NCBI GenBank assembly: GCA_029775855.1
Contig: JARVJZ010000001.1
Span: forward strand, 300,519 to 364,518
Source: Nitrososphaeria archaeon
GTDB lineage: Archaea; Thermoproteota; Nitrososphaeria; Nitrososphaerales; JAAOZN01
Direction: 5' to 3'
Length of the DNA: 64,000 bases
Under the pieces are notes generated by a model. It searched no databases. It was not told where the DNA came from and worked only from the letters and a program-made list of their open reading frames with translations. Shown here in pieces: positions 23,863 through 50,255 of the stretch. Position 1 is the first letter of the stretch. The number at the start of each line of letters is the position of its first letter. A program made the position numbers and the translations under genes.

Positions 23863-26133
23863 ATGTTGACCCGCCTTCGCATCCTAATCAAAGGTGTCGT
23901 CCAAGGTGTAGGCTTCAGACCCTTCATCTACCGAGCAGCCACAGAGAAAGGGTTGAAAGGGTATGTAAAAAACCTAGGAGACGGCACAGTCGAAATACTC
24001 GTGGAGGGTAAAGACGGCATACTAAAATCCTTTATAGACGACATCCATCTTAGAAGACCACCTCTATCAAAGATATACGACCTTAAGATCGAGGAAGTAG
24101 ATGCTGAACCTCCTCTACCAACATTCACCATCCTCGAAAGCTCAAAAACGGGCTTCGAAAGCGGCTCCATAATACCAGCAGACGTCTCAATCTGCAACAA
24201 CTGTCTACAAGAACTCTACAACCCAAACGACAGACGCTACAGATACTTCTTCATAACCTGCACAGACTGCGGACCAAGGTTCACAGCCATAGAAGAAATG
24301 CCATATGACAGACCAAACACAACGATGGCAGAATTCCCTATGTGCAAAGAATGCAGAAGAGAATACACAGACCCCTTAAACAGAAGATTCCACGCCCAAA
24401 CGATAGCTTGCAGCATCTGTGGACCAAAAGTCTTCCTAGCAGATAAAAGAGGCGAAATTATAGACTGCAGAGATCCGATAGAAGAAGCAGCCAAGCTAAT
24501 AGACGAAGAAATGATCGTTGCAGTCAAAGGAAACGGCGGCTTCCACCTTGCAGTAGCAACCACCAACCCAACACCTATCTTAAGGTTGAGAAGAAGCAAA
24601 CACAGAGCCCAAAAACCCTTCGCTATAATGGCTAAGAGCATAGAAGTAATAAAGACATTCGCAGAGGTCTCAAAGAAGGAAGAAGAGCTTCTACTCTCAC
24701 ACATAAAACCCATCGTGCTACTGAAAAAGAGCAGCAACTACTACCTCGCTGAAGAAATCGCCCCAGGCTTACACAACATCGGCACCATGCTACCATATAC
24801 AGCCCTACACTCCCTCCTACTCAACGCAACAAAAGAGCCAGCCCTCATAATGACGAGCGCCAACCCCTCTGGAGAACCCATAATCATCGACAACAAGGAA
24901 GCCATCACGAGACTCAACAGCGAAGTAGACTACTTCCTACTCCACAACAGAAAGATCGCACATAGATGCGACGACTCAGTAGTCAAGTTCATCGACGATA
25001 AACCATCCCTAATCCGAAGATCCAGAGGCTATGCACCAGAACCCGTTGAGCTGAAATTCCAACCAAAAGAATCAGTCCTTGGACTAGGCGGAGAGCTTAA
25101 CGTCACTTCGTGCATAAACGTAGCACACAGAGCATACCTAACCCAACACATAGGCGACATAGAGCACCACAACACCTACCTATTCCTAAAAGATGCAATC
25201 AAACACCTAACAAGGCTCATAAGGGCGAAAATAAGCAAAGTCGCATGTGACCTACACCCAGCATACCTAACCACAAAGCTGGCTGAAGAAATGGTGCAAG
25301 AGCAAAACCTCCAACTCATAAAAGTGCAGCACCACCATGCACACATAACCTCAGTTATGGCTGAATATGGATTAGACGAAGCAATCGGAATCTCAGTAGA
25401 CGGAGCGGGCTACGGAGCAGACGGAACCATCTGGGGCGGTGAAGTGCTCTACTGCACATACAACCAATACAGACGCCTAGCCCACCTCCAACTACATCAA
25501 CTTCCAGGAGGAGATCTTGCCACAAAGTACCCTATCAGAGTAGCAGCCGCTATACTCTCACACTCAAACCGCCACAAAGAATGGCTAAGCTCCGTAGCAC
25601 ACAAACTACCATACGGAGAAAAAGAAGCCGAAGTCATACTAAAGATGATTGAACAAAAACGCAACCCTAAAACCTCAAGCTGTGGTAGGGTACTAGACGC
25701 CATCTCAGCAATACTTGGAATATGCTATGAGCGTACATACGAAGGGGAACCAGCCATGAAGCTTGAAGCAGCAGCCCAAAATGGGGAAGACGTGTTAAAA
25801 GTAGCACCAGTCATAAAAGGCAACATATTAGAGACCTCAATAATAGTAGAGCAGATACTTGACAACCTAAAAAGATACCACATAAAAGACCTAGCATACT
25901 CTGCAGAAGAATATCTAGCCAAAGGCCTAGCAGAATTAGCCATAAACCAAGCAGAAGAGCTCAAAGTGAAGAGCATAGCCCTCTCAGGCGGCGTAGCATA
26001 CAACCAACACATAACAACCACCATCAGAAACCTAGTTAAAGGAGCTCAACGTATATTTTATACGAACATGCTCGTTCCACCAGGGGATGGAGGCATATCA
26101 CTTGGGCAAGTAGCCGCTGCCTGCTACATTTAA
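23863..26133 (+). CDS. hypF: Hydrogenase maturation carbamoyltransferase
   Basis: GVVQGVGFRPF, two Zn fingers, RRSRGYAP, QHHHAH, GDGGISLGQ; start moved to ATG 23863 because the longer ORF overlaps the array. Confidence 0.96.
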   Translation: MLTRLRILIKGVVQGVGFRPFIYRAATEKGLKGYVKNLGDGTVEILVEGKDGILKSFIDDIHLRRPPLSKIYDLKIEEVDAEPPLPTFTILESSKTGFESGSIIPADVSICNNCLQELYNPNDRRYRYFFITCTDCGPRFTAIEEMPYDRPNTTMAEFPMCKECRREYTDPLNRRFHAQTIACSICGPKVFLADKRGEIIDCRDPIEEAAKLIDEEMIVAVKGNGGFHLAVATTNPTPILRLRRSKHRAQKPFAIMAKSIEVIKTFAEVSKKEEELLLSHIKPIVLLKKSSNYYLAEEIAPGLHNIGTMLPYTALHSLLLNATKEPALIMTSANPSGEPIIIDNKEAITRLNSEVDYFLLHNRKIAHRCDDSVVKFIDDKPSLIRRSRGYAPEPVELKFQPKESVLGLGGELNVTSCINVAHRAYLTQHIGDIEHHNTYLFLKDAIKHLTRLIRAKISKVACDLHPAYLTTKLAEEMVQEQNLQLIKVQHHHAHITSVMAEYGLDEAIGISVDGAGYGADGTIWGGEVLYCTYNQYRRLAHLQLHQLPGGDLATKYPIRVAAAILSHSNRHKEWLSSVAHKLPYGEKEAEVILKMIEQKRNPKTSSCGRVLDAISAILGICYERTYEGEPAMKLEAAAQNGEDVLKVAPVIKGNILETSIIVEQILDNLKRYHIKDLAYSAEEYLAKGLAELAINQAEELKVKSIALSGGVAYNQHITTTIRNLVKGAQRIFYTNMLVPPGDGGISLGQVAAACYI

Positions 26134-26150
26134 CATATAGGTGAATCGAA

Positions 26151-26387
26151 ATGTGTTTAGCTGTTCCAGGCTTGGTGTTAAGCAAGGAAGGTACACATGC
26201 TAAAGTAGATTTTGGAGGGGGTATAATTAGAGAGGTTAACATCTCTCTTGTTGATGTTAAGGTTGGGCAGTATGTGATCGTGCACGCCGGCTTTGCGATT
26301 CAAGTCATGGATGAGGATGAAGCGAAAGAAACGCTCGAATTATGGCGGCAAGTGTTTAACCTAGATGAAGAGGAGCAGAGCGTATGA
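26151..26387 (+). CDS. hypC: Hydrogenase maturation chaperone
   Basis: MCLAVPG, YVIVHAGFAI. Confidence 0.97.
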   Translation: MCLAVPGLVLSKEGTHAKVDFGGGIIREVNISLVDVKVGQYVIVHAGFAIQVMDEDEAKETLELWRQVFNLDEEEQSV

Positions 26388-27490
26388 CCTTCAAATTATC
26401 AGATCAACATACAGCCAAACATATCTTAAAAAAGATTAGAGAACTTAACCTAAACCTAAGGATCATGCATGTCTGCGGCACACACCAAGACACCTTAGTC
26501 AAACATGGGTTAGACACCCTTCTTCAAGAATGTAATGTCGAAATGAGACAAGGACCTGGCTGCCCAGTCTGTGTAACACCTCCAAGAGAGTTCGAGGAAG
26601 CCAAAATCTTAGCTAAAGAAGGATGTGTAATAGCGGTATATGGCGATGTTATAAGGGTTCCAGTGGAAGGGGGTTCATTAGCAGACCTTAAAGCAGAAGG
26701 ATACGACATACGCATCGTCTATGGCGCAGAAGACGCTGTTAAAATCGCTAAAAAAACACATAAACCTGTTGTCTTCATGGCAATAGGATTCGAAACTACC
26801 GCGCCAAGCACAGCTTCAGTATTGCTTAATGAGCCGCCTGAAAACTTTTATGTGCTATCATGCCACCGCTATGTTCCACCAGCCTTAGATGCTCTGCTTG
26901 GAATGGGTGAATTGAAGATCGATGGGTTAATAGATCCTGGGCATGTAAGCGCGATTATAGGTCTTAAACCTTATGAATACCTCTCGGAGAGGTATCATCT
27001 CCCTCAAGTAGTTTCAGGGTTTGAGCCCCTTGATATGTTGGTTGCCGTGTTGATGATAGCGCTTCAGATAAAAAAAGGTGAAGCTAGGGTTGAAAACGAG
27101 TACAAGCGTGTAGTAAAGTATGAAGGAAACATTAAGGCTCTGAAGATCTTAAATGAAGTCTTCCAGCCTTCAGATGCTGTCTGGAGGGGCTTAGGTCTCA
27201 TAAAGGATTCTGGTATGAAGATTAGAGGAGTATTCGAAGACCACGATGCGAGGCAAGTCTTTGAAGACAGGCTTAAGGTGCTTGACTCTATTGAATTCAA
27301 AGAGCCTTTTGGATGTAGGTGCAGCGAGGTTATACGGGGTCTACTTTACCCACAGGAATGTGTTTTATTCGGTAAGGTGTGCACACCAACCAGACCCATT
27401 GGACCTTGTATGGTTTCGGTTGAGGGTTCGTGTAATATTGAATACAAATATGGTAGGTTGAATGTTAAGTTGTCTTCTAACAGATCCTAG
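26384..27490 (+). CDS. hypD: Hydrogenase maturation protein
   Basis: HVCGTH, GPGCPVCVTP, GFETTAP, PIGPCMVSVEGSC. Confidence 0.97.
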   Translation: MTFKLSDQHTAKHILKKIRELNLNLRIMHVCGTHQDTLVKHGLDTLLQECNVEMRQGPGCPVCVTPPREFEEAKILAKEGCVIAVYGDVIRVPVEGGSLADLKAEGYDIRIVYGAEDAVKIAKKTHKPVVFMAIGFETTAPSTASVLLNEPPENFYVLSCHRYVPPALDALLGMGELKIDGLIDPGHVSAIIGLKPYEYLSERYHLPQVVSGFEPLDMLVAVLMIALQIKKGEARVENEYKRVVKYEGNIKALKILNEVFQPSDAVWRGLGLIKDSGMKIRGVFEDHDARQVFEDRLKVLDSIEFKEPFGCRCSEVIRGLLYPQECVLFGKVCTPTRPIGPCMVSVEGSCNIEYKYGRLNVKLSSNRS

Positions 27491-28529: not shown

Positions 28530-28648
28530 CCTCTCACTGCCCTATCATGATATGGGTCGCAGATATAGAACTTAACTGTTTAGTAATCTATGAAGCTGGT
28601 TTACCGAGCTTCCCACATTATAATATTCTGAGGAATAGCAATTGTAGA

Positions 28649-29023: not shown

Positions 29024-29035
29024 GGTCTTCTCCCT

Positions 29036-29743: not shown

Positions 29744-29800
29744 AAAATATTGTTAAACTAAGATATATCTGCTTCCCATTTTCTTTACAACTCTGCATAT

Positions 29801-30501: not shown

Positions 30502-31005
30502 ATGCAGACTTATGCCCAAACCGATATTCTCGACGCTGTAAGAGGTGTCATCGGTGATCATAGACCAGAGGCTTGCTACCAATGTATGAAGTGCACAAGC
30601 GGCTGCCCAGCTGCTAAAGTGAGTGAATACAAGCCTCATATGATGGTGATACTGACTAAAGCGGGGTTAGCTGAAGAGGTTATGAAAAGCGGCATAATAT
30701 GGGCTTGCTCTATGTGTCTAAAGTGTAAAGAATATTGTCCACAAGATGTTGCACCCTTCGATGTTGTCACAGCCTTAAAGAATGTAGCTATCTCTAAAGG
30801 CTATCGCCCACCTGAGATGCTTGTAGGGATGTCAAATAATGTTCTAGACTATGGTTGCATAATGGATAAGCCTATGACAATAACCACAACAGACTTCGAA
30901 GAAGTATCAAGAAAGAGCTTAGGGCTTCCCGATATTGTGCATCCTAAAGATATGGAGCAGTTTAAGAAAACAGTTGCCAGATTCGGATTCAGGAGGTTGA
31001 GCTAG
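30502..31005 (+). CDS. hdrC: Heterodisulfide reductase subunit C
   Basis: CYQCMKCTSGCP, WACSMCLKCKEYCPQ. Confidence 0.92.
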   Translation: MQTYAQTDILDAVRGVIGDHRPEACYQCMKCTSGCPAAKVSEYKPHMMVILTKAGLAEEVMKSGIIWACSMCLKCKEYCPQDVAPFDVVTALKNVAISKGYRPPEMLVGMSNNVLDYGCIMDKPMTITTTDFEEVSRKSLGLPDIVHPKDMEQFKKTVARFGFRRLS

Positions 31006-31881: not shown

Positions 31882-31882
31882 A

Positions 31883-33865: not shown

Positions 33866-33870
33866 AGATT

Positions 33871-35312: not shown

Positions 35313-35319
35313 GAATAGG

Positions 35320-38940: not shown

Positions 38941-38970
38941 AAAGAGGGATGCTTTGAAGCGCCCATAAAT

Positions 38971-42819: not shown

Positions 42820-44262
42820 ATGGGTGTAAAAGAAGAACTTATTGCCTTTTTAGGTGAGCAAGGCATTTCTGATACACAGTCTGAGAAAAAAGTCTACAGC
42901 CACGACTTAGCCCCACTACCTAGCGAAGTTTCTTGGCTCTTTAAAAGCACACCAGACCTAGTAGTTAAACCGAAATCAAAAGAGCAAGTTTCTGAAATTC
43001 TGAAGATTGCAAATAAGTATAAAATACCAGTTACACCTAGAGGCGCAGCAACCTGGGGATACGGAGGAGCGGTGCCCACAAAAGGCGGTATTCTACTCGA
43101 TTTAACCGGCTTAGATCGGATACTTGAGTTTGATAAGAAGAATGGTTTAATCAAAGTTGAATGCGGAGTTGTCTGGCAGAATCTAATAGACCTTCTTGCA
43201 GACACAGAGTGGCGTCTTCCTGTTTGTCCGTCGAGCTCTCCTAGCTCTACCGTTGGCGGTTGGGCTGCTACTGGTGGGTTGGGCTACGGCTCTCTTAAGT
43301 ATGGTAGGTTTGTGGATAATGTAGTTGCAGCTACTGTAGCGCTTCCTTCTGGTGAAATAATTTCTATAGATAAGAGGTCGGCGCCACTAACTCTTGAACA
43401 AGCCTTTTCATCGGAAGGCATACTTTGCATATTTTTAGATCTAACCATTAGACTTGCACCTAAGCTAGAATCAGAGGAACCGTTTCTAGCCTACTTCTAT
43501 CAGCTTCAAGGCGCGTTAAATGCGGCTTTGCGTGTTTTGGAGTCGACAAAGCCTGATACCTTAGTCCTAAGAGCCTTCGGCTTCCTAAAGGCGAGGCGAG
43601 ATAAGCCCATTAAATCAATAGAAGATGCAGAATCTGGCGCAATTTTATTCGGGCTCTACACAGGCGCTAAGCCTGAGGTTGAATCTTGGATGAAAGTTTT
43701 CCGCGATATAGCATTAGAATATGGGGGCAATGTAAGACCTTCCGCAGAAGCTTGGGAAGAATGGAATGAACGCTTCTATCCGCTGAGAATAAAGAAGTGG
43801 GGACCTACAGTCCTAACATCAGACGTTCTAATTCCTGTTAGAGCTTTACATAATATGATACTCTACTCTTGGAGGCTTGGTAAAGATTCTGGCATGGATG
43901 TTGAGCTTGAAGCAATATTTACTTCACCAGAACACGTGCTCTACTTCCCCCTCTTTCTAAGCGACGAAAGAAAGCCGATGAAATACCTTACACACACAGC
44001 CATCACAAAGAAGCTAATAGATGAAGCGGTAAAACACGGAGGGCGCTCCTATGGATATGGAATCTGGAACTCCTTCCACCTAAAGAAGTCAGAACCAGAA
44101 CGGAAGAAAGAGTTTATCACACTTAAGAAGCAGTTAGACCCTAATTCCATTCTCAACCCAGGTAAGACTATTGAAGCAAGATCAAAGTTTGGCTTAGCCT
44201 TACCAGCACCACTTTACTCACTCTTTCTGGACGCGTTATGGATGTTTGGGAAGGTGTTGTAG
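42820..44262 (+). CDS. FAD-binding oxidoreductase (GlcD/VAO family), substrate unknown
   Basis: PVTPRGAATWGYGGAVP, STVGGWAATGG.G, LDPNSILNPGK. Confidence 0.88.
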   Translation: MGVKEELIAFLGEQGISDTQSEKKVYSHDLAPLPSEVSWLFKSTPDLVVKPKSKEQVSEILKIANKYKIPVTPRGAATWGYGGAVPTKGGILLDLTGLDRILEFDKKNGLIKVECGVVWQNLIDLLADTEWRLPVCPSSSPSSTVGGWAATGGLGYGSLKYGRFVDNVVAATVALPSGEIISIDKRSAPLTLEQAFSSEGILCIFLDLTIRLAPKLESEEPFLAYFYQLQGALNAALRVLESTKPDTLVLRAFGFLKARRDKPIKSIEDAESGAILFGLYTGAKPEVESWMKVFRDIALEYGGNVRPSAEAWEEWNERFYPLRIKKWGPTVLTSDVLIPVRALHNMILYSWRLGKDSGMDVELEAIFTSPEHVLYFPLFLSDERKPMKYLTHTAITKKLIDEAVKHGGRSYGYGIWNSFHLKKSEPERKKEFITLKKQLDPNSILNPGKTIEARSKFGLALPAPLYSLFLDALWMFGKVL

Positions 44263-45447
44263 ATGAGTCTATTTAAACTCCCAACACTTCAAAAAACGGA
44301 CATCTTTGCTTGTGCTCAATGCGGCTACTGCGTCAAAAAATGCCCTGTTTATAACGCTCTAAATTGGGAATCCTACTCCCCTAGAGGCAGACTCTACCTG
44401 CTTAAACAGCTACAAGATGAAAACAAATCCTTTTTGGGCAAGTTAATCATAAGAGACAAAATCGACGTAAAAGAAGTCGCTCAAAGGATCTACGATTGTG
44501 CTATATGTGGTAGATGCGAAGAAGCTTGCCACCTAGAGCTTAATCTACCATCCTTATGGGCTAAGGCAAGAGAAGCTTTATTCTCAATAGGTGCAGCACC
44601 CCAACTCCTAACACAAGTCGAAACCACTATACTCAGTAGAAAGAACGTCTTTGGAATGGATGCTGAATCCAGAGGAGACTGGGTCATATATACTGGTGTA
44701 GATGCACCTACCAAGAAGGAAGCTGAAATAGCATACTTCGTCGGATGTGTAACATCATACTCTGGCAGAGTGCAGAGCGTAGCACAAGCAATCGCCAGCT
44801 TATTAAATCACGTAGGCGCAAATTGGACTCTACTAGACGGTGAATGGTGCTGTGGACACCCGCTCTACGTAAGCGGCGCAGTCTCAAAGTATAAGGAGTT
44901 GGCTGAACATAACGTTAAAGCAATCGAATCTACTGGCGCTAAGATTGTAGTAACGGGATGCCCAGGCTGTAGACTCGCACTTGCTGAGGAGTATCCAGCT
45001 ATCCTAGGGTATGAGCCCGACTTTGAGGTGCTACACTTTACACAGCTATTGGATCGGTGGTTATCTGAAGGACGGCTTAAGATTGAGATGGGTGAAGAGC
45101 TCATTACCTATCATGATCCATGTGAACTTGCTAGACTTGGTGGTGTAATCGAGCAGCCTAGAAGAGTAATATCATCGTTAACCAGTAGGTTTGTGGAGCC
45201 TCTTGAAAGAGGTAGAGATGGTGTATGCTGCGGCTCAGGAGGCATGCTAAAAGCCACTAACCCTACGCTCTCTGCTACACTCGCTGAATCAAGACTAAAC
45301 TCTCTTGTGAACACAGGCTCCAGTTTGATACTCTCAGCATGCCCGACTTGTGATCAATCTCTCGCTGAAGCTGCGGTTAAGGCTCAAAGGAGTGTAAGAG
45401 TTGTGGATTTGACTCAGCTAATAGCTGAGCGTCTAGGGTTGATGTAA
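44263..45447 (+). CDS. HdrD/GlcF-like Fe-S oxidoreductase with two CCG domains
   Basis: CAQCGYCVKKCP, SPRGR, CAICGRCEEAC, WCCG, CPGC, HDPCELAR, CCGSGG, CPTC. Confidence 0.9.
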   Translation: MSLFKLPTLQKTDIFACAQCGYCVKKCPVYNALNWESYSPRGRLYLLKQLQDENKSFLGKLIIRDKIDVKEVAQRIYDCAICGRCEEACHLELNLPSLWAKAREALFSIGAAPQLLTQVETTILSRKNVFGMDAESRGDWVIYTGVDAPTKKEAEIAYFVGCVTSYSGRVQSVAQAIASLLNHVGANWTLLDGEWCCGHPLYVSGAVSKYKELAEHNVKAIESTGAKIVVTGCPGCRLALAEEYPAILGYEPDFEVLHFTQLLDRWLSEGRLKIEMGEELITYHDPCELARLGGVIEQPRRVISSLTSRFVEPLERGRDGVCCGSGGMLKATNPTLSATLAESRLNSLVNTGSSLILSACPTCDQSLAEAAVKAQRSVRVVDLTQLIAERLGLM

Positions 45448-45501
45448 ACCTTAACAGTAACTTCTTTAAGAAACCTTTAGAGTAGAGAGTGTGAATAGCG
45501 A

Positions 45502-46611
45502 ATGGTAGGTTTGGAGTCTCCAGAATATGTTAGGACGAGCTTGGCTGGCGCTATGACGCTAGGATTTGTTCCCGGTAGATTTTATAGAGACGCAAAGTCT
45601 TACTGCCTTAACCTCCTTTTGACTTATAGGGATGGCTGTATGGGGAGATGCGCTTATTGCGGTCTCTCGCGTGCACGCCTACCAGATACTCCGTGGTCGG
45701 AGCGGAGCTTTATTAGAGTTGACTGGCCTATAGTTAGACTCGACGATGTTATTGAAAGATTATCTAAAGGTTCCTGTGCAGATGTTGAGCGTATTTGCGT
45801 TTCTATGGTTACTAATGGTAGAGCTAGAATTGACACAATAACCGTAGTTGAGAGAATTAGAAGAGTCTTCGAGCAGATCTCTGTGTTGATAACACCAACA
45901 ATAGTCGATGAAGATTGGTTGAAGGAAACCCATGAGGCTGGTGCTGATATGGTTGGTGTTGCTATAGATGCTGCTACACCCATGCTCTTCGATTTGTTAA
46001 GGGGAAAGAGTGTAGGTGGGCCACATAGGTGGGAGCGTTACTGGAGTATTTTGAAGAGCGCTGTAAAGGTCTTCGGTAGATACAACGCTGGAGTGCACTT
46101 AATTGTTGGTTTAGGGGAAAGCGAATACGATATGGTTAATGCGATTCAACAAGCATATGATCTAGGTGCTTTGACACATCTTTTCTCATTCTTCCCAGAG
46201 GAGAAGTCGCCAATGGAGTTCTACTCACAGCCTCCAATAGGGCAGTATAGGCGGATACAGCTTGCAAGGTATCTGATAAACAAGGGTCTTAGCAGAGCAG
46301 AACATATGAAGTTTGATAGTAGAGGTAGGATAATTGAGTTTGGCGTGGATGAATCAACCCTAGAAGAGAGTATAACCTGTGGCGCTCCCTTCATGACATC
46401 TGGGTGCAGAAGTAAAAACAGAGAAGGTGCTTGCAATCGACCTTACTCTAACTCCACACCATATCAAGCGTTAATAGGTGAAATAAGAAACTACCCCTTC
46501 CAACCAACGGCTGAAGATGTTAAGATCATAAGGCTTCAGCTAAAAGACTATTCTGATATCCCGGTTAAACGGTGGGTAGAGGCTCCTGAGCTGGTGGATG
46601 AAGTGGAGTAA
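45502..46611 (+). CDS. lipS2: Radical SAM lipoyl synthase subunit, LipS2 (TK2248)-type
   Basis: CMGRCAYC radical SAM motif; TSGC...CNRP motif; adjacent to the ligase. S1/S2 numbering is from recalled motifs. Confidence 0.8.
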   Translation: MVGLESPEYVRTSLAGAMTLGFVPGRFYRDAKSYCLNLLLTYRDGCMGRCAYCGLSRARLPDTPWSERSFIRVDWPIVRLDDVIERLSKGSCADVERICVSMVTNGRARIDTITVVERIRRVFEQISVLITPTIVDEDWLKETHEAGADMVGVAIDAATPMLFDLLRGKSVGGPHRWERYWSILKSAVKVFGRYNAGVHLIVGLGESEYDMVNAIQQAYDLGALTHLFSFFPEEKSPMEFYSQPPIGQYRRIQLARYLINKGLSRAEHMKFDSRGRIIEFGVDESTLEESITCGAPFMTSGCRSKNREGACNRPYSNSTPYQALIGEIRNYPFQPTAEDVKIIRLQLKDYSDIPVKRWVEAPELVDEVE

Positions 46612-47630
46612 TGGGGATAATAGACACCTGCCTACAGCAGCCTTTTAATACATTAGCAGAGTTATTCGACCGAGCGGAAGAAATATTAAAGCAGAACTTT
46701 GCAAACAACATTTACCTGTATGCGCCGGGTATGGTGAATTATGAGACAAGCTACTATAAGAGCAGCCCCTTCTCTTTCCCAGCCATCTCAGTTACTGGTA
46801 GGCGATGCTTCCTAAACTGCGACCACTGTGGGGGTAAGTTGCTTGAGAGCATGTTTTCAGCCGAATCGCCAGATAAGCTCTACACTTTGATGAAGCGGCT
46901 CGTTCAGAAGGGTGCTAAAGGTTTTCTGCTAAGCGGCGGCTGCAACTCACAGGGTTATGTTCCACTTGAGCAGTTTTTGCCTGTTGTAGCGAAGATTAAG
47001 CGTGAAGTATCTATTGAAGTGGTTGTTCACTGCGGCTTAGCTCCTTCACATGTAGCCGATGCGCTTGCAGAATCTGGTGTAGACGCAGTTCTACTTGATA
47101 TAGTAGGTTCAGACGCAACAATAAAAGAAGTCTGCCACCTCGATAAATGTGTTGACTCGTTTAACCACCTTCTGAAGACACTCTCTGAGCGCTCTTTGCC
47201 TGTCGTGCCACATATAGTCGTTGGTATGCATTATGGTATGATGCTTGGAGAAAGATATGCTCTAGCGCTTATCTCAAAATATAGACCAGCTGCTGTTGTT
47301 ATAGTAGCCCTTATGCCACTAGAGGGAACGAAGATGATGCACATAGCACCACCCTCACCACAAGACATCGCTCGAGTTATGCTTGCAGCTAGGCTCACTA
47401 TGCCTAACATACCAATAGTGCTGGGCTGCGCTAGGCCTAGAGGAAATCATAGAGTGGCGACAGATGCTTTAGCTGTAAGGTGTGGTGTCAACGGCATAAC
47501 CTATCCAAGCGAATCCCTATTCCATATTTGTACGCGTCGTGGAATCCACCTAGCCTTCTCAGAAAAGTGCTGCGGCTTAATATGGAGAGATATCTCTAGT
47601 TCCATAAATAGGGCTGAGTTCAGCATATGA
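46611..47630 (+). CDS. lipS1: Radical SAM lipoyl synthase subunit, LipS1 (TK2109)-type
   Basis: ISVTGRRCFLNCDHC, LSGGC, GCARP and C-terminal CC motifs. Confidence 0.8.
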   Translation: MGIIDTCLQQPFNTLAELFDRAEEILKQNFANNIYLYAPGMVNYETSYYKSSPFSFPAISVTGRRCFLNCDHCGGKLLESMFSAESPDKLYTLMKRLVQKGAKGFLLSGGCNSQGYVPLEQFLPVVAKIKREVSIEVVVHCGLAPSHVADALAESGVDAVLLDIVGSDATIKEVCHLDKCVDSFNHLLKTLSERSLPVVPHIVVGMHYGMMLGERYALALISKYRPAAVVIVALMPLEGTKMMHIAPPSPQDIARVMLAARLTMPNIPIVLGCARPRGNHRVATDALAVRCGVNGITYPSESLFHICTRRGIHLAFSEKCCGLIWRDISSSINRAEFSI

Positions 47631-49195
47631 AACCTACTTGGAGGCTTTTAGACACTGGCTTAAGATCAGCGGCTGAAAATATGGCCCTAGACGACATTAT
47701 ACTTGAATGTAGATCTAGGAATCTGGTTCCAGACACCTTAAGGTTCCTCCGGTTTAAGCCCCCAGCTGTCCTTGTGGGCTACCACCAAGATGTGCTCCAT
47801 GAAGTCAGATTAGAGTATGTAAAGAGCCGTGGAATCGATGTTAATAGGAGAATCACCGGCGGCGGAGCCATCTACTTTGATGAAAACACAATAGGCTGGG
47901 AGATTATAGCTTCAAAAGCTTCCTTAGACGAATCAATTAAGATAGAAGGTCTCTTCGAAGTAATGTGTAGAGCACCCATAATCGCTTTAAGCAAACTTGG
48001 TCTAGAAGCCAGATTCAGACCTAGAAACGACATCGAAGTCAAAGGTAAAAAGATCTCAGGAACAGGAGGGACTGAGCGTGAGGGTGCTTTCCTCTTTCAA
48101 GGCACACTTCTAACCGACTTCGACATAGAATCCATGATCAAATCTCTTAAAATACCCATAGTCAAGCTGAAAGATAAAGAGATAGCATCAGCAAAGCAGA
48201 GAGTAACTTGTATAAAATGGGAACTAGGCGATACACCATCGTTTGAGGAATTGAAGAGCCTATTAGTTGAAAGCTTCTCAGAGGCTCTCGATGTAAACTT
48301 TAAGGAAGGTGATTTAAGCGAATGTGAACAAAATCTTCTACAGGAGAAGCTCCCCTACTTTCAGTCTGAGGAGTGGATTTACCTAGACCGCCGAGCGCCA
48401 GAAGAGGCTGGTGTGGTAAGAGCTATAAATAAGGCTAAAGGAGGGCTAGTTGAAGTCTCGTTAACCATAGATCGAAGAGCGAAGATCATTAAATCCATAA
48501 TTATAACAGGGGACTTCTTCGCTACACCCTCAAAAGGAGTGCTAGATCTAGAAGCTGCCTTAAAATTTACAAGCTATGAAAGAGAAAGCCTTGAGAAGAC
48601 AATCACCTCAGCATTCAAAGAGAAGAATATAGATATAGTGGGTGTAGAGCCCCAATTCATCGCCAACCTAATCACACAAGCAGTGAACAAGACTAGTCTA
48701 GAAGCCTTCGGAATAACTCTAGACGAAGCAAACTACATACACACCATCAACCTAGACTCAACACCTCTGCTAGACTACAAATGGAGATATCTTCTACTCC
48801 CCTACTGCTCAAAGCTAGTAAGCTGCGCATACCGTAAAGAAGAAGGCTGTGTGCAGTGCGGATTATGCAGCATAGGAGAAGCATACAAGCTAGGTCAAGA
48901 AGCGGGTTTAATCGTAAAAACGATACAAAATTTTGAACATCTTATGGAGGTTCTAGAAGAGGTTAAGCGCTCAAATTCAGCCTACATAGGATGCTGCTGC
49001 GAAGCCTTTTACACAAAACATTTAGATGAACTGCGTGATATAGGAGTTCCAGCTCTTCTACTGGATATTGATGATAAAACGTGCTACGACTTAGGTAAGG
49101 ATGATAAAGCGTATATAGGAACATTCGAGGGTCAGACGACACTAAAACTACCCATACTCACAAAGATCCTAAACACGCTAGCAAGTGTAGCCTAA
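47627..49195 (+). CDS. Lipoate/octanoate:protein ligase with C-terminal accessory domain and Cys-rich DUF116-like domain
   Basis: NMALD, RRITGGGAIY, NDIEVKGKKISGTG, ITGDFF, LLPYCSK...CVQCGLC...GCCCEAF. Confidence 0.9.
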   Translation: MKPTWRLLDTGLRSAAENMALDDIILECRSRNLVPDTLRFLRFKPPAVLVGYHQDVLHEVRLEYVKSRGIDVNRRITGGGAIYFDENTIGWEIIASKASLDESIKIEGLFEVMCRAPIIALSKLGLEARFRPRNDIEVKGKKISGTGGTEREGAFLFQGTLLTDFDIESMIKSLKIPIVKLKDKEIASAKQRVTCIKWELGDTPSFEELKSLLVESFSEALDVNFKEGDLSECEQNLLQEKLPYFQSEEWIYLDRRAPEEAGVVRAINKAKGGLVEVSLTIDRRAKIIKSIIITGDFFATPSKGVLDLEAALKFTSYERESLEKTITSAFKEKNIDIVGVEPQFIANLITQAVNKTSLEAFGITLDEANYIHTINLDSTPLLDYKWRYLLLPYCSKLVSCAYRKEEGCVQCGLCSIGEAYKLGQEAGLIVKTIQNFEHLMEVLEEVKRSNSAYIGCCCEAFYTKHLDELRDIGVPALLLDIDDKTCYDLGKDDKAYIGTFEGQTTLKLPILTKILNTLASVA

Positions 49196-49196
49196 G

Positions 49197-50255
49197 TTGA
49201 AAGATAAATACGATGTTCTGATAGTCGGCGCTGGACCAGCAGGCTCAGCAGCATCTATAAAATGTGTTGAAGAAGGTCTTAACACGTTGCTGGTAGAGAA
49301 GGGCGGGTTAGGTAGGCATAAACCTTGTGCAGGCGTGCTTCCACCAGTAGCTTCCTATGTGTTAGATGAATTAGGTTTACATCTCTCTGATAACGTTCTA
49401 AGCGACCCTCCTAAGCTTAAGGTGTTCTATGTCCCACCAAGCGGTAGAGCAAACGGTGGGGAATTAAGAAACTACTTTGTTTTCAATTTGGATAGAGACC
49501 TCTTTGACAGATGGCTTGCTGAGAAAGCGGTTGAAAGGGGTGTTAATCTGCAGACCAACACCAACTTCATAACCCTTGAACAAGGCGCACAAGTAGAAGC
49601 GATCTTGGAAACGAAGGGCAATATACAAAAAGTAGAAGTAGAGTATATAGTGGGAGCAGATGGAGCCAACTCAAAGGTGAGAAGATGCTTAAAAGACGCG
49701 CCAACACAAAAACTACTTACAGTCATTCAGGAGTCTTGGGAAGGCTATGGAGAATTTGAAGACTCTTTCTACACCATCCTAAACCGCAAAATAACACCAA
49801 CATACGGCTACTTGTTGAAGAAGAGAGGCACATTATTAATAGGCACAGGCGCCAAAGACTCTAAACTATGTGTTCAGAGTCTAGAAGCGTTAAAAAGTTG
49901 GCTCAAGAGCATGTTTAACTTCAAGCCAAATAAGATGATTAAAAGAGAAGTAGGATTCCTGCCCTATGGTGAATGCTTCATTGGATGTGGTAATGTTATG
50001 CTTATCGGGGATGCAGCTGGTCTATGCAACAGATTTTCAGGTGAAGGGATTAGATTCGCTTTAGAAAGTGGCTTAACCGTGGCTGAATCAATCAAGGATG
50101 CAAAGAGTGGTTGTCAAGCCTTAGAAATATATAAGATGCGTGCTCAACCTATTCTAGATTTTGTAGAGAAGACTGCAAACATACTTGAGGAAAAGGATGA
50201 TAAATGGCGAGAAGAATTCGTCTTAACGGAGCTGAGACGCTCTAACCTCTGGTAA
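49197..50255 (+). CDS. Geranylgeranyl-reductase-like flavoprotein, LipT-like by context
   Basis: VGAGPAGS, KPCAG, GADG.NS, GDAAG...GEGI. Confidence 0.82.
   Translation: MKDKYDVLIVGAGPAGSAASIKCVEEGLNTLLVEKGGLGRHKPCAGVLPPVASYVLDELGLHLSDNVLSDPPKLKVFYVPPSGRANGGELRNYFVFNLDRDLFDRWLAEKAVERGVNLQTNTNFITLEQGAQVEAILETKGNIQKVEVEYIVGADGANSKVRRCLKDAPTQKLLTVIQESWEGYGEFEDSFYTILNRKITPTYGYLLKKRGTLLIGTGAKDSKLCVQSLEALKSWLKSMFNFKPNKMIKREVGFLPYGECFIGCGNVMLIGDAAGLCNRFSGEGIRFALESGLTVAESIKDAKSGCQALEIYKMRAQPILDFVEKTANILEEKDDKWREEFVLTELRRSNLW

What the first reader, a model, noticed from the sequence alone, without database searches (positions are those of the whole stretch)
23863..50255. Candidate new redox system: a lipoylated carrier protein as the disulfide substrate of Mvh-Hdr and HdrD-like enzymes
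Seen: one 26-kb block with all hyp genes, hdrCBA-mvhDGA, an HdrE-like/HdrD-like pair, two further HdrD-like proteins (four intact CCG-domain proteins counting HdrB), a lipoyl carrier, OsmC and a LipS1/LipS2/ligase/LipT set. No GcvP/T/L, E2/E3, sHdr, DsrC or Mcr gene is visible in the window. Known: CCG domains do thiol/disulfide chemistry; HdrABC-Mvh uses CoM-S-S-CoB in methanogens and is proposed to use DsrC in sulfate reducers; lipoylated LbpA partners sHdr in sulfur oxidisers. Inference: lipoyl/dihydrolipoyl protein is the high-potential couple here. H2-driven bifurcation would reduce ferredoxin and the lipoyl carrier, the FAD enzyme/HdrD pair would feed in organic electrons, and the membrane HdrD/E-like pair or OsmC would re-oxidise it.
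Basis: partly seen in the sequence, partly recalled or inferred. Interest (0 to 1): 0.9.

Follow-up and report, generated by a model that had tools for sequence, protein, structure and literature searches.

The report
Lipoyl carrier protein linked to Hdr enzymes
An anaerobic archaeon keeps a lipoic-acid carrier protein, the genes that make its lipoate, a peroxidase, three Hdr-like iron-sulfur enzymes and an H2-splitting Hdr-hydrogenase in one gene block, which suggests the carrier may be the unidentified disulfide that such enzymes use outside methanogens.

Summary
The gene block is real.

This genome has a complete glycine cleavage system elsewhere (GcvPA/PB, GcvT, a canonical GcvH and Lpd), so the lipoate genes have an ordinary client here.

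The other condition fails, because the linkage is conserved:
- The window's lysine-bearing carrier (GcvH1) groups with the sulfur-oxidiser LbpA proteins, not with canonical GcvH.
- Of 41 GcvH1-like loci, 27 have a CCG-domain gene within 5 kb. Of 34 canonical-type loci, none do.
- A relative from another order carries the same hyp–lip–osmC–gcvH–HdrD–mvh–hdr supercluster, yet no GcvP, GcvT or E2 was found in its genome.
- On another contig of this genome, hdrA(MvhD)-hdrC-hdrB-gcvH form one same-strand array.

All five Hdr-type CCG proteins examined keep the full catalytic cysteine pattern of Hdr. A co-fold of GcvH1 with the adjacent HdrD-like protein gave only weak support.

The tightest neighbour pair is OsmC–GcvH1, which matches the known lipoyl-dependent peroxidases.

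A similar idea has been suggested in print for Culexarchaeia. I rate this a new variant of a known kind, partly supported and untested at the bench.

The parts
23728..26133 (+). hypF (carbamoyltransferase for [NiFe] maturation); the likely true start is the ATG at 23863
   Evidence: Pfam HypF_C_2, zf-HYPF, Sua5, Acylphosphatase; ATG in frame at 23863
26151..27490 (+). hypC (26151-26387) and hypD (26384-27490)
   Evidence: Pfam HupF_HypC 92.8 bits, HypD 441 bits
27477..30277 (-). hypE (27477-28529), hypA (28649-29023), hypB (29036-29743), hycI-type maturation protease (29801-30277)
   Evidence: Pfam AIRS/AIRS_C, HypA, cobW, HycI
30502..33865 (+). hdrC (30502-31005), hdrB (31006-31881; two full C-x-CCG-x-CxxC sets), hdrA (31883-33865; 660 aa, long methanogen-type form with ferredoxin domains)
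   Evidence: Pfam; NCBIfam CoB_CoM_SS_C/B and HdrA2 863 bits, all below equivalog cut-offs; Cys motifs
33871..36789 (+). mvhD (33871-34338), mvhG (34338-35312), mvhA (35320-36789): group-3c-type [NiFe] hydrogenase
   Evidence: Pfam FlpD, Oxidored_q6, NiFeSe_Hases; NCBIfam VhuD/VhuG/VhuA best hits, below cut-offs
36890..37720 (+). 276-aa integral membrane protein, the putative anchor of HdrD1. It has a NarI/EtfD-like fold with two invariant His (H96, H258).
   Evidence: No Pfam hit. Atlas nearest clusters are PF02665, score 0.91 with 202 shared features. AF2 pLDDT 72. Foldseek top hit is EtfD 9ojn (E 1.5e-3, TMq 0.58), then NarI. Invariant residues. Fused to HdrD in L025 and in many homologues.
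37717..38940 (+). HdrD1: HdrD-like protein with 2 CxxCxxCxxxC motifs and 2 complete CCG sets
   Evidence: Pfam. Best solved relative is EtfD 9ojn at 1.7e-64; HdrB scores 1e-13. It has CCG and CPSC where EtfD has CTG and CPHC. Motifs.
38971..39402 (-). GcvH1: lipoyl carrier of the LbpA-like branch. Lys70 sits in GKWVGP; pI 7.9; no Cys.
   Evidence: Pfam GCV_H 135.6 bits; NF002270 136.5 bits against a cut-off of 117, TIGR00527 106.9 against 115.85; alignments; pI; tree
39501..39944 (+). OsmC-like Cys peroxidase, divergent from gcvH1 across 98 bp
   Evidence: Pfam OsmC 50.5 bits; both Cys conserved in 6 of 6 orthologues; gap
39945..41135 (-). 396-aa protein with two CCG domains (two full CCG sets, one full ferredoxin-type motif)
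   Evidence: Pfam CCG; NCBIfam TfrB/LdhH-like, below cut-off; motifs
41122..42255 (-). AbrB/MazE + PhoU-domain regulator; overlaps the 396-aa CCG gene by 14 bases
   Evidence: Pfam MazE_antitoxin, PhoU; gap; homologues inside the cluster in L021, L022, L023, L065
42319..42714 (+). GcvH2: GcvH-like protein without the lipoyl lysine (Arg at that column), pI 9.0
   Evidence: Pfam GCV_H 85.9 bits; alignment; the 8-row clade (SH-aLRT 99) has R or M at the Lys column
42820..45447 (+). GlcD-like FAD dehydrogenase (42820-44262) and HdrD2 (44263-45447; 2 ferredoxin-type motifs plus 2 full CCG sets)
   Evidence: Pfam FAD_binding_4, FAD-oxidase_C, CCG; NCBIfam GlcD/GlcF/LdhH-like, below cut-offs; motifs
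45502..50255 (+). Lipoate assembly genes: lipS2 (45502-46611), lipS1 (46611-47630), lplA-lplB-DUF116 fusion (47627-49195), LipT-like flavoprotein (49197-50255)
   Evidence: NCBIfam LipS2 209 bits (cut-off 270), LipS1 233 bits (cut-off 230), lipoyltrans 181.7 bits (cut-off 280), GG-red-SF 147.8 bits; Pfam LplA-B_cat, Lip_prot_lig_C, DUF116. 'LipT' is assigned by position and family only.

Best explanation
GcvH1 is a dedicated lipoyl carrier of the LbpA-like branch. I propose that its lipoyl/dihydrolipoyl group is the thiol/disulfide substrate of one or more of the Hdr-type CCG enzymes encoded around it.

Proposed circuit (all steps inferred):
1. OsmC oxidises dihydrolipoyl-GcvH1 while reducing hydroperoxides, as known Ohr/OsmC enzymes do.
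2. The membrane-anchored HdrD1 connects the carrier to the quinone pool. On potentials alone, the favoured direction is dihydrolipoyl to quinone.
3. The soluble GlcD-HdrD2 pair connects the carrier to a 2-hydroxy/2-oxo acid couple.
4. HdrABC-MvhADG connects it to H2 and ferredoxin by flavin-based bifurcation, or by the reverse reaction.

Because lipoamide has a low potential (-0.29 V), the Hdr-Mvh reaction would run close to equilibrium. It could therefore also work backwards, making H2 from reduced ferredoxin plus dihydrolipoyl protein.

Shown here: gene content, conserved linkage, carrier phylogeny, intact catalytic cysteine sets.
Inferred: every protein contact and every electron flow.

My odds: about 0.5 that GcvH1 is a substrate of at least one of these CCG enzymes; about 0.3 that HdrB of the Mvh-Hdr complex is among them.
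For: Carrier identity:
- GcvH1 shares GKWVGP with the two-cysteine proteins of sHdr-like loci and is basic (pI 7.9). The genome's canonical-type copies have pI 4.9-5.0.
- In a 104-row tree, GcvH1 and GcvH2 fall in the half that holds the bacterial LbpA-type clade (SH-aLRT 89). GcvH3 and GcvH4 fall with GcvH genes that sit beside GCS genes.

Linkage (80 genome-contig loci, grouped by best-matching paralogue):
- 41 loci are GcvH1-like. 27 have a CCG gene within 5 kb and 1 has a GCS gene.
- 34 loci are GcvH4-like. None has a CCG gene and 15 have a GCS gene.
- Counting only loci with at least 3 kb of flank on both sides, the CCG figures are 20 of 24 against 0 of 23.
- Across the whole fetched locus, the GcvH1-like loci hold GlcD in 11, the membrane protein in 6, HdrA/Mvh in 6 and OsmC in 5. 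The GcvH4-like loci hold none of these.

Supercluster: G141, from another order, has hypBACD-lipS2-lipS1-lplA-lipT-hypE-reg-osmC-gcvH1-hdrD-glcD-gcvH2-reg-hdrD-memb-gcvH2-ccg-hycI-mvhAGD-hdrABC-hypF. A Desulfurococcales MAG has lplA-gcvH1-[membrane-HdrD fusion]-osmC-hdrCBA.

Client-less genomes: 6 of 21 genomes with GcvH1-type loci lack GcvP, and all 6 lack GcvT. Three of them (G123, G141, G130) also lack E2, yet have 2-4 GCV_H hits.

Second linkage in this genome: hdrA(MvhD fusion)-hdrC-hdrB-gcvH3 on contig C3. hdrC-hdrB-gcvH3 is also seen in 2 of 3 same-genus genomes.

Catalytic sites: HdrB, HdrB2, HdrD1, HdrD2 and the 396-aa protein each carry two full C-x-CCG-x-CxxC sets. HdrD1 lacks the two changes that make EtfD's clusters non-catalytic (EMBO J 2026, PMC13083937, passages read).

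No known Hdr substrate system: no McrA, DsrC or ComA.

Co-fold of HdrD1 with GcvH1: weak support. Score 0.60, best of 3 controls 0.00. The pass mark was reached by 58 of 80 solved complexes and 2 of 110 mismatched pairs, but at 0.60 or under by only 7 of those 80 and by both mismatches that passed. The runs agree in at least 97% of contacts, and the partner's pLDDT is at least 89.

Gene arrangement: gcvH2-glcD-hdrD2-lipS2-lipS1-lplA-lipT is one same-strand array, and gcvH1 and osmC are divergent across 98 bp.

RNA: metatranscriptome contigs from one study (2 runs) match hdr-mvh, gcvH1, osmC and glcD at mostly 95-100% identity. This shows presence in RNA libraries only.
Against: - This genome has a full glycine cleavage system plus Lpd. 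GcvH1 passes the NCBIfam GcvH subfamily cut-off. An ordinary role therefore cannot be excluded here.
- Five of the six GcvP/T-less genomes still encode a bona fide Lpd. NADH-Lpd could thus recycle the carrier without any CCG enzyme, as in Trichomonas.
- HdrD1's closest solved relative is EtfD, which moves electrons from ETF to menaquinone and handles no disulfide. Relatives such as GlcF, GlpC and YdiJ are not known to use thiol substrates either (that last point is recalled).
- GcvH1 lacks the two cysteines that mark LbpA.
- Only 6 of 41 GcvH1-like loci hold HdrA/Mvh genes. In G123 no mvh or hdrA gene was found in the 7.7 kb that follow the cluster on its contig.
- In the sampled order, Mvh and GcvH1 co-occur in one genus only, which counts as one evolutionary event.
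- The co-fold gave only weak support.
- With lipoamide at -0.29 V, bifurcation from H2 has little driving force. This is my own arithmetic and uses recalled potentials for H2 and CoM-S-S-CoB.
- There are no biochemical data.
Confidence: 0.5

Rival explanations
1. Ordinary lipoate biology plus coincidental neighbours. Under this reading the lipoate genes serve the glycine cleavage system. They also serve an NADH -> Lpd -> lipoyl-H-protein -> OsmC peroxide-detoxifying chain of the kind shown for Ohr/OsmC and for Trichomonas hydrogenosomes. The CCG proteins would be quinone- or flavoprotein-linked dehydrogenase subunits (EtfD, GlcF/GlpC, YdiJ types). Hdr-Mvh would use some other, unknown thiol.
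For: - A complete GCS and Lpd are present in this genome.
- OsmC-GcvH1 is the tightest pair: divergent across 98 bp here and tandem in L022 and L065.
- OsmC keeps both catalytic-type Cys in 6 of 6 orthologues.
- Lipoylated proteins are described as the biological reductants of Ohr/OsmC (PMC5384416, passages read).
- The H+L+OsmC system without P/T is known from Trichomonas. I saw only the title of Nyvltova 2016 in a reference list, and one sentence about it in PMC11316075.
- Lpd is present in 5 of 6 GcvP/T-less genomes.
- HdrD1's nearest solved relative is EtfD.
Against: - It does not explain why CCG genes lie within 5 kb of 27 of 41 GcvH1-like loci and of 0 of 34 canonical-type loci.
- It does not explain why lip genes sit between hyp genes, in one supercluster with mvh-hdr, in two orders.
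- It does not explain why gcvH3 follows hdrACB.
- It does not explain why the CCG proteins keep the catalytic Hdr cysteine pattern rather than EtfD's.
- Lpd is not in the cluster in any locus examined.
Confidence: 0.28
2. Sulfur carrier, as proposed for sHdr-LbpA. The dihydrolipoyl arm of GcvH1 would carry sulfane sulfur or a mixed disulfide. The Hdr-like enzymes would then process sulfur, for example H2-dependent reduction of polysulfide or S0, or sulfur oxidation, rather than cycling a plain lipoyl disulfide.
For: - GcvH1 groups with the LbpA-type clade of sHdr-like loci.
- The assembly genes are of the sLpl(AB)-LipS1/S2-LipT type that accompanies sHdr (Tanabe 2023, PMC10332631, passages read).
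- TusA (3 copies) and DsrE (2 copies) occur in the genome.
Against: - The TusA/DsrE genes lie on other contigs, not by the cluster.
- The sHdr layout hdrC1B1A-hyp-hdrC2B2 is absent.
- HdrA is the long bifurcating form with MvhD and Mvh.
- The two LbpA cysteines are absent.
- Nothing in the window was matched to a rhodanese or a sulfur transferase in the ORFs I scanned.
Confidence: 0.1
3. GcvH1 and GcvH2 are non-catalytic subunits or regulators of the GlcD-HdrD and membrane HdrD complexes. The fold would have been recruited for binding and the lipoyl group would play no redox role.
For: GcvH2 forms a conserved clade (8 rows) with no lysine at the lipoyl column, always beside glcD-hdrD or the membrane-HdrD pair.
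Against: - GcvH1 keeps the lysine in all 27 rows of alignment A3.
- The lipoate ligase and LipS1/S2 genes are in the same array.
- In G123 and G141 no other lipoyl client was found.
Confidence: 0.07

Closest known systems
sHdr-LbpA sulfur-oxidising system with sLpl(AB)-LipS1/LipS2-LipT lipoate assembly (Cao et al. 2018, PMC6067878; Tanabe et al. 2023, PMC10332631; Kumpel et al. 2026 preprint; passages read)
   Same: - A GcvH-like lipoate-binding protein is encoded beside Hdr-like CCG enzymes and beside lipS1, lipS2, a lipoate ligase and lipT.
- The carrier is basic and shares the K-W-V-G context.
- It branches with the two-cysteine proteins of sHdr-like loci.
   Different: - There is no hdrC1B1A-hyp-hdrC2B2 layout.
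- HdrA is the long methanogen-type form, coupled to MvhADG.
- The carrier lacks both LbpA cysteines.
- No TusA, DsrE or rhodanese lies in the block.
- The partners are HdrD-type proteins, one membrane-anchored and one paired with GlcD.
- The host looks like an anaerobe with hydrogenases, not a sulfur oxidiser.
HdrABC-MvhADG of methanogens (Wagner et al. 2017; known to me from citations and from the description in PMC13083937)
   Same: Same six subunits in one operon. HdrB has two complete CCG sets. HdrA is long and carries ferredoxin domains.
   Different: No McrA and no ComA were found in the genome, so CoM-S-S-CoB is unlikely to be the substrate. All NCBIfam equivalog scores are below their cut-offs.
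GcvH next to HdrA2B2C2 / the Ehe hydrogenase in Culexarchaeia (Kohtz et al. 2022, PMC9723716, passages read)
   Same: A non-methanogenic TACK archaeon with HdrABC-MvhADG and HdrA2B2C2, lacking CoM/CoB synthesis, with a gcvH gene beside hdr genes. The authors suggest that GcvH could hold the disulfide for HdrB. This genome's hdrA(MvhD)-hdrC-hdrB-gcvH3 array is the like case.
   Different: That paper makes the suggestion in one paragraph, from one cluster. I did not find in the passages read any mention of an LbpA-like carrier, the lipoate assembly genes, OsmC, HdrD/GlcD modules, a lysine-less paralogue or GCS-less genomes. Its supplements were not available to me.
Lipoyl-dependent Ohr/OsmC peroxidases, and the Trichomonas hydrogenosomal H-protein + L-protein + OsmC system (PMC5384416, passages read; Nyvltova 2016, title only)
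   Same: OsmC-like protein with both Cys, adjacent to a lipoyl H-type protein. Some relatives have H and L proteins but no P or T proteins.
   Different: Here the pair is embedded among Hdr-type enzymes, a hydrogenase and the lipoate assembly genes, and Lpd is not in the cluster.
Mycobacterial EtfD (PDB 9ojn; PMC13083937) and HdrDE / DsrMK-type membrane complexes
   Same: The membrane protein plus HdrD1 together match EtfD's membrane domain (Foldseek top hit) and its soluble Fe-S/CCG part (1.7e-64). Fused forms are common among homologues, some carrying PF02665.
   Different: The protein is split into two genes. It has CCG where EtfD has CTG, and CPSC where EtfD has CPHC, which is the catalytic Hdr pattern. 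No etfAB genes lie in the block. The membrane protein has only two invariant His and no PF02665 match.

Membership tests
LbpA (lipoate-binding protein of sHdr systems) | Conserved lipoyl lysine | tested here: met
   GcvH1 has K70, invariant in 27 of 27 rows of A3. GcvH2 fails this test: it has Arg.
LbpA (lipoate-binding protein of sHdr systems) | [quoted passage not shown] | tested here: not met
   GcvH1 and GcvH2 have no Cys at all. The bacterial rows of A3 do have them.
LbpA (lipoate-binding protein of sHdr systems) | Basic surface / pI above 4.5, versus acidic GcvH | tested here: met
   pI is 7.86 for GcvH1 and 9.04 for GcvH2, against 4.99 and 4.89 for GcvH3 and GcvH4. This is whole-protein pI only; surface charge was not modelled.
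LbpA (lipoate-binding protein of sHdr systems) | Encoded with the hdrC1B1A-hyp-hdrC2B2 genes and sulfur transferases | tested here: not met
   The window has hdrCBA-mvhDGA and HdrD-type genes instead. TusA and DsrE lie on other contigs.
[quoted passage not shown] | Scores above the curated GcvH models | tested here: inconclusive
   GcvH1 scores 136.5 on NF002270 (cut-off 117, passes) but 106.9 on TIGR00527 (cut-off 115.85, fails). GcvH4 passes both, with 159 and 147.6.
[quoted passage not shown] | Groups with, and lies beside, gcvT/gcvP genes | tested here: not met
   GcvH1 falls outside the canonical half of the tree. Only 1 of 41 GcvH1-like loci has a GCS gene within 5 kb, against 15 of 34 for the GcvH4 type.
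HdrABC-MvhADG (CoM-S-S-CoB reductase) | Six subunits, with two complete CCG sets in HdrB | tested here: met
HdrABC-MvhADG (CoM-S-S-CoB reductase) | The organism makes CoM-S-S-CoB (Mcr, CoM synthesis) | tested here: not met
   No McrA and no ComA in a genome that is 98.4% complete. CoB synthesis and alternative CoM routes were not tested.
HdrDE / DsrMK / EtfD-type membrane complex | HdrD-type subunit: two [4Fe-4S] motifs plus two CCG domains | tested here: met
   HdrD1
HdrDE / DsrMK / EtfD-type membrane complex | NarI-family haem-b membrane subunit (PF02665) | tested here: inconclusive
   No Pfam match. Fold match to the EtfD membrane domain and to NarI (model pLDDT 72). hhalign finds only a 30-residue C-terminal match at probability 24%. 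Two invariant His.
Ohr/OsmC lipoyl-dependent peroxidase | OsmC fold with the two catalytic cysteines | tested here: met
   Pfam OsmC 50.5 bits; both Cys present in 6 of 6 orthologues. The conserved Arg and Glu were not checked.
Ohr/OsmC lipoyl-dependent peroxidase | Peroxidase activity supported by a lipoylated protein | not testable with these tools
   Needs an enzyme assay.
sLpl(AB)-LipS1/LipS2 lipoate assembly | LipS1 and LipS2 radical-SAM pair with an LplA/LplB ligase (and LipT) | tested here: met
   LipS1 233.2 bits (cut-off 230) passes. LipS2 209.1 bits is the best hit but falls below its cut-off of 270. LplA-B_cat and Lip_prot_lig_C are present. LipT is assigned by family and position only.

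The most novel reading that the evidence does not exclude
In non-methanogenic archaea that carry methanogen-type HdrABC-MvhADG but make no CoM-S-S-CoB, a protein-bound lipoyl disulfide on a dedicated LbpA-like carrier (GcvH1) takes the place of the heterodisulfide. H2, ferredoxin, the quinone pool (through a split EtfD/HdrDE-like complex), a 2-hydroxyacid dehydrogenase and an OsmC peroxidase would all exchange electrons through this one swinging-arm carrier. Because the couple lies near -0.29 V, the Hdr-Mvh step would be freely reversible. It could then act as a ferredoxin- and dihydrolipoyl-dependent, H2-evolving confurcating enzyme during fermentation.
Probability: 0.3. Interest if true: 0.85.

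Novelty: new variant of a known kind. Interest (0 to 1): 0.68.

Why it matters
Many uncultured archaea and bacteria encode HdrABC-MvhADG or HdrD-like enzymes but have no CoM-S-S-CoB and no DsrC. Papers routinely write 'unknown disulfide'; examples are the Asgard study PMC11291895 (passage read) and the Culexarchaeia study.

A genetically linked protein-bound candidate makes that open question directly testable with recombinant proteins: holo-, apo- and K70A carrier against each CCG enzyme.

If the idea holds, lipoate would gain a further role beyond 2-oxoacid dehydrogenases, glycine cleavage and sHdr sulfur oxidation. It would also explain why some anaerobes keep lipoate assembly genes with no classical lipoyl enzyme. 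If only the OsmC branch holds, the finding is a modest extension of known lipoyl-dependent peroxidases.

Tried and rejected
**Membrane protein (36890-37720).** Pfam gave nothing even at E 10. PF02665 did not hit it in the genome search. hhalign against a fused PF02665-bearing homologue gave only a 30-residue match at probability 24%. I therefore do not file it as HdrE.

**RNA data.** Only Logan contigs of 2 metatranscriptome runs from one study matched; a third run from another study had none. Contigs cannot show transcription, transcript ends or strand. The lack of cover over 47664-50300 (lplA, lipT) and over parts of hdrD1 and the 396-aa CCG gene says nothing.

**Co-fold.** Only one job was allowed, and I spent it on HdrD1 + GcvH1. 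HdrB, HdrD2, the 396-aa protein and GcvH3 + HdrB2 were not co-folded.

**Order-level co-occurrence of MvhA and GcvH1.** The table is 4 genomes with both, 1 with GcvH1 only, 0 with Mvh only, and 116 with neither, out of 121. All four 'both' genomes are one genus, so I give this no statistical weight.

**gcvH3.** Outside the own genus its relatives lie beside GCS genes (4 of 5 GcvH3-like loci). In 26 loci from other genera of the order, gcvT is adjacent in 23, the exceptions being L114, L122 and L123. The hdrACB-gcvH3 link is therefore seen in this genus only in my sample. One of those 26 rows, L120, comes from the unpublished genome G107; the count does not depend on it.

**The 5.2-kb stretch 18517-23727.** I checked it with Rfam, TRF and an ORF listing and found nothing.

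**Considered and rejected.**
- sHdr membership, because the layout and the cysteines are not met.
- A role for the block in methanogenesis, because there is no Mcr.
- DsrC as the substrate, because there is no DsrC.

**Literature.** I made ten searches. Apart from the Culexarchaeia passage, none returned a paper that links a lipoyl carrier to HdrABC-Mvh or to HdrD/GlcD enzymes. Subscription journals and all supplementary tables were out of reach. That includes Tanabe 2023 tables S2-S5 and the Kohtz 2022 supplements, which may list such clusters.

Full report
**1. What is in the window**

The window is G000:C1:300519-364518. The genome is 1.51 Mb in 6 contigs, 43% G+C, and 98.4% complete. A CdvB gene beside lpd and a deoxyhypusine synthase gene point to a TACK archaeon. 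The closest public relatives of the cluster's genes are MAGs labelled Nitrososphaerales/Nitrosopumilales (92-95% identity for GcvH1) and Candidatus Terraquivivens, of the Caldarchaeales (77%).

Pfam and NCBIfam scans give this map:
- hypF 23728/23863-26133, hypC and hypD, on the + strand.
- hypE, hypA, hypB and hycI, on the - strand.
- hdrC-hdrB-hdrA-mvhD-mvhG-mvhA, 30502-36789, + strand.
- A 276-aa membrane protein, 36890-37720, + strand.
- HdrD1, 37717-38940, + strand.
- GcvH1, 38971-39402, - strand.
- OsmC-like, 39501-39944, + strand.
- A 396-aa protein with two CCG domains, 39945-41135, - strand.
- An AbrB/MazE+PhoU regulator, 41122-42255, - strand.
- GcvH2, 42319-42714, + strand.
- GlcD-like, 42820-44262, and HdrD2, 44263-45447, + strand.
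- lipS2, lipS1, lplA-lplB-DUF116 and a LipT-like flavoprotein, 45502-50255, + strand.

Gene spacing:
- hdrCBA-mvhDGA, the membrane protein and hdrD1 form one + strand array, with a 100-base gap before the membrane gene.
- gcvH1 and osmC are divergent across 98 bases.
- gcvH2-glcD-hdrD2-lipS2-lipS1-lplA-lipT form one + strand array with gaps of at most 105 bases.

**2.

*Test one: is there a complete glycine cleavage system elsewhere? Yes, in this genome.*
- GcvPA and GcvPB lie on C3, scoring 559 and 653 bits, above their cut-offs.
- GcvT lies on C2 (422 bits).
- A canonical GcvH4 lies on C2 (159 bits).
- Lpd lies on C4 (TIGR01350, 529 bits against a cut-off of 408.8).
- Not found: E2, DsrC, McrA, ComA.
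- TusA (3 copies) and DsrE (2 copies) lie on other contigs.

*Test two: is the linkage absent from relatives? No, it is conserved.*

The genome has four GCV_H genes, and three of them adjoin CCG genes. The third case is on C3: a 794-aa HdrA-MvhD fusion, then HdrC, HdrB and GcvH3, all on one strand. hdrC-hdrB-gcvH3 is also seen in 2 of 3 same-genus genomes.

**3. What kind of carrier is GcvH1**

- GcvH1, GcvH3 and GcvH4 keep the lipoyl lysine. GcvH2 has Arg there.
- GcvH1 (pI 7.9) and GcvH2 (pI 9.0) are basic. GcvH3 and GcvH4 have pI 5.0 and 4.9.
- The Dahl group's 2026 preprint (passages read) names two marks of LbpA against GcvH: basic surfaces and two terminal cysteines. GcvH1 meets the first and fails the second.
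- GcvH1 shares the GKWVGP context with the two-cysteine proteins of bacterial sHdr-like loci.
- In a quick maximum-likelihood tree of 104 GcvH-family rows, GcvH1 and GcvH2 lie in a 48-row half (SH-aLRT 89) with that bacterial clade (21 rows, support 99). GcvH3 and GcvH4 lie among GcvH genes that sit beside GCS genes. The alignment is short (145 columns), so deep forks are weak.
- GcvH2 belongs to an 8-row clade (support 99) whose members all have R or M at the lysine column.

**4. Linkage in other genomes**

One scan of genome contigs with GcvH1 kept 80 loci. I grouped them by which of the four paralogues matched best, then counted neighbours by tblastn.

| Best-matching paralogue | Loci | CCG gene within 5 kb | GCS gene within 5 kb | lip gene within 5 kb |
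|---|---|---|---|---|
| GcvH1-like | 41 | 27 | 1 | 19 |
| GcvH4-like | 34 | 0 | 15 | 4 |
| GcvH3-like | 5 | 0 | 4 | 1 |

- Counting only loci with at least 3 kb of flank on both sides, a CCG gene is present in 20 of 24 GcvH1-like loci and in 0 of 23 GcvH4-like loci.
- The Fisher p-value of 2e-10 (computed on the full counts, 27 of 41 against 0 of 34) overstates the case, because the loci are related to one another.
- Anywhere in the fetched locus, the GcvH1-like loci hold GlcD in 11, the membrane protein in 6, HdrA/Mvh in 6, OsmC in 5 and Hyp in 3. The GcvH4-like loci hold none of these.

The lineages with linkage are diverse:
- The own genus (L020, L021).
- Terraquivivens-like Caldarchaeales (L022, L023, L065).
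- A Bathyarchaeia MAG, with glcD-hdrD-gcvH1-lplA-gcvH2-glcD-hdrD on one strand (L024).
- A Desulfurococcales MAG (L025).
- A MAG labelled Clostridium thermobutyricum, with glcD-hdrD-gcvH-hdrD-hdrA-mvhD (L028).
- Zixibacteria and unnamed bacteria, with GlcD-HdrD fusions of 831-913 aa.

In G141, joining L065 with L132 gives one supercluster: hypBACD-lipS2-lipS1-lplA-lipT-hypE-regulator-osmC-gcvH1-hdrD-glcD-gcvH2-regulator-hdrD-membrane-gcvH2-ccg-hycI-mvhAGD-hdrABC-hypF. This is the window's gene set in a different order, at 40-78% identity, with the lipoate genes lying between hyp genes. In G123 the cluster stops at the ccg gene, and no mvh or hdrA gene follows in the remaining 7.7 kb of that contig.

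**5. Genomes with the carrier but no classical client**

- Of 21 genomes holding GcvH1-type loci, 6 gave no GcvP match.
- All 6 gave no GcvT match.
- Three of them (G123, which is Ca. Terraquivivens tikiterensis; G141; G130) also gave no E2 match.
- All 6 have 1-5 GCV_H matches.
- Completeness is not reported for these genomes, so each single absence is soft. Even so, three Terraquivivens-like genomes agree on GcvP and GcvT.
'H plus L without P and T', beside an OsmC, is the make-up of the Trichomonas hydrogenosomal peroxide-detoxifying system. I know that paper only from its title in a reference list and from one sentence about it.

**6. The CCG enzymes**

HdrB, HdrB2, HdrD1, HdrD2 and the 396-aa protein each have two complete C-x-CCG-x-CxxC sets. 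The HdrB-like protein on C2 has only one.

HdrD1's best solved relative is mycobacterial EtfD (9ojn), at 1.7e-64 with a profile. HdrB scores about 1e-13.

The EtfD paper (PMC13083937, passages read) explains why EtfD's clusters are not catalytic. Its first CCG domain binds a linear [3Fe-4S] cluster through four Cys. A histidine (His583) completes the second cluster in place of a bridging cysteine.

In the pairwise alignment, HdrD1 has CCG where EtfD has CTG, and CPSC where EtfD has CPHC. HdrD1 therefore keeps the Hdr-type pattern. This is a reading from sequence only.

The 276-aa membrane protein:
- It has no family match.
- Only 19 close homologues were found, none annotated.
- Its AlphaFold model (pLDDT 72) best matches EtfD (E 1.5e-3, TMq 0.58) and then NarI (TMq 0.41-0.44).
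- The Atlas lead also points to PF02665 clusters (score 0.91).
- In the Desulfurococcales MAG, and in many homologues of about 676 aa, the membrane part and HdrD are one protein. Some of those fusions carry PF02665.

I read the pair as a split EtfD/HdrDE/DsrMK-type membrane complex. The haem question stays open, because only two His are invariant.

**7. Direct test of binding**

I co-folded HdrD1 (alignment of 31 rows) with GcvH1 (27 rows). The result was weak support:
- Score 0.60; best of 3 controls 0.00.
- The pass mark was reached by 58 of 80 solved complexes and by 2 of 110 mismatched pairs.
- At 0.60 or under, it was reached by only 7 of those 80 solved complexes, and by both of the mismatches that passed.
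- The runs agree in at least 97% of contacts, and the partner's pLDDT is at least 89.
- No interface was reported.

**8. OsmC**

The OsmC-like protein keeps both catalytic-type cysteines in 6 of 6 orthologues. It is the closest partner of gcvH1: divergent across 98 bases here, and tandem (regulator-osmC-gcvH1) in L022 and L065.

Ohr/OsmC enzymes are lipoyl-dependent peroxidases whose biological reductants are lipoylated proteins (PMC5384416, passages read). This step of the model has the best precedent.

**9. Energetics (inference)**

Cao et al. give lipoamide an E0' of -0.29 V (passage read). The abstract of PMC10734219 (search listing) gives ferredoxin about -450 mV and menaquinone -74 mV. 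H2 at -414 mV and CoM-S-S-CoB at about -140 mV are recalled.

Splitting electrons from H2 between ferredoxin and lipoyl then leaves only about 20-45 mV per electron. With CoM-S-S-CoB the figure is about 95-120 mV. So the carrier is not a 'high-potential' acceptor, and the reaction would be close to reversible. Dihydrolipoyl to menaquinone is downhill by about 0.2 V, which fits the membrane complex acting as an oxidiser of the carrier. The direction of GlcD-HdrD2 cannot be told from sequence.

**10. Expression**

Two metatranscriptome runs from one study hold contigs that are mostly 95-100% identical to the window over hdrCBA-mvhDGA, the hdrD1 3' end with gcvH1, osmC, the regulator and glcD. 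Depth was above zero in 20 of 30 bins in one run and in 19 of 30 in the other. Contigs show that the sequences are present in RNA libraries, and no more.

**11. Prior art and novelty**

- sHdr-LbpA is an established lipoate-binding-protein/Hdr-like system, with the same assembly genes.
- Kohtz et al. 2022 note a gcvH beside HdrA2B2C2 and the Ehe hydrogenase in Culexarchaeia. They suggest that it could hold the disulfide for HdrB.
- The two Caldarchaeales papers I searched do not mention Hdr-lipoate links. In PMC9246946 there were no occurrences of Hdr, Mvh, lipo- or glycine cleavage. PMC10547907 has one mention of heterodisulfide reductase.
- None of my ten literature searches returned a description of the module seen here. 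That module is: a cysteine-less LbpA-like carrier, a lysine-less paralogue, GlcD-HdrD, a split EtfD-like membrane HdrD, OsmC, the lipoate assembly genes and hdr-mvh-hyp, together with its presence in genomes without GCS or E2.

**12. Verdict**

The functional association of a dedicated lipoyl carrier with Hdr-type CCG enzymes is well supported by comparative genomics. The specific role as the bifurcation partner of Mvh-HdrABC is plausible (about 0.3) but rests on linkage alone. An ordinary Lpd-OsmC-H-protein reading explains part of the block. I rate it a new variant of a known kind, with interest 0.68.

Noticed in passing
window 18517-23727: A 5.2-kb stretch with no ORF of 100 aa or more. It holds many short ORFs on the - strand, no Rfam family at gathering score, and only two tiny tandem repeats. 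It may be decayed gene(s) or a non-coding region; unexplained.
   Followed up: partly
G000 contig C3, locus L009 7987-12289 (+): A same-strand array: HdrA fused to MvhD (794 aa), HdrC (192 aa), HdrB (294 aa) and a canonical-type GcvH3 (137 aa), with a second hycI-like protease convergent after it. hdrC-hdrB-gcvH3 is also seen in 2 of 3 same-genus genomes.
   Followed up: partly
window 42319-42714 and L021, L022, L023, L024, L065: A conserved GcvH-like clade (8 rows) with Arg or Met in place of the lipoyl lysine, always next to glcD-hdrD or the membrane-HdrD pair. Function unknown.
   Followed up: partly
window 47627-49195: The lipoate ligase is a three-part fusion: LplA catalytic domain, LplB-like C-terminal domain and DUF116 (PF01976, residues 381-488). 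A hit of similar length (about 512 aa) occurs in L065.
   Followed up: no
L025 10443-12470 (-); L043, L044, L049, L057: Gene fusions that support complexes. In a Desulfurococcales MAG the membrane protein and HdrD are one 676-aa protein. In Zixibacteria and unnamed bacteria GlcD and HdrD are one protein of 831-913 aa, beside a GcvH1-type gene and lplA.
   Followed up: partly
window 1046-7106: A molybdopterin oxidoreductase (860 aa), a 203-aa ORF (not scanned), a 162-aa ORF (not scanned) and a cytochrome b/b6-type protein (462 aa). This hints at a quinone-linked anaerobic respiratory complex near the block.
   Followed up: no
window 56732-57904 (-): A 390-aa protein with weak matches to the reductive dehalogenase family and a 4Fe-4S dicluster domain.
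   Followed up: no
G000 contig C2, locus L010 9771-11403 (-): An HdrB-like protein with only one full CCG set (CCA variant), paired with a 253-aa ferredoxin-like protein and lying beside 2-oxoacid:ferredoxin oxidoreductase genes. Probably an SdhE/TfrB-type pair, not part of the carrier system.
   Followed up: no
G039 (= G122) versus G000: Within the same genus the glycine cleavage genes vary. G000 has GcvP and GcvT. G039/G122 (98% complete, 8% contamination) gave no GcvP or GcvT match but does have an E2, which G000 lacks.
   Followed up: partly
L114 (G005:C3): In another family of the same order, an osmC-like gene lies beside a canonical-type gcvH. The OsmC-GcvH pairing is therefore not limited to the GcvH1 type.
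   Followed up: no
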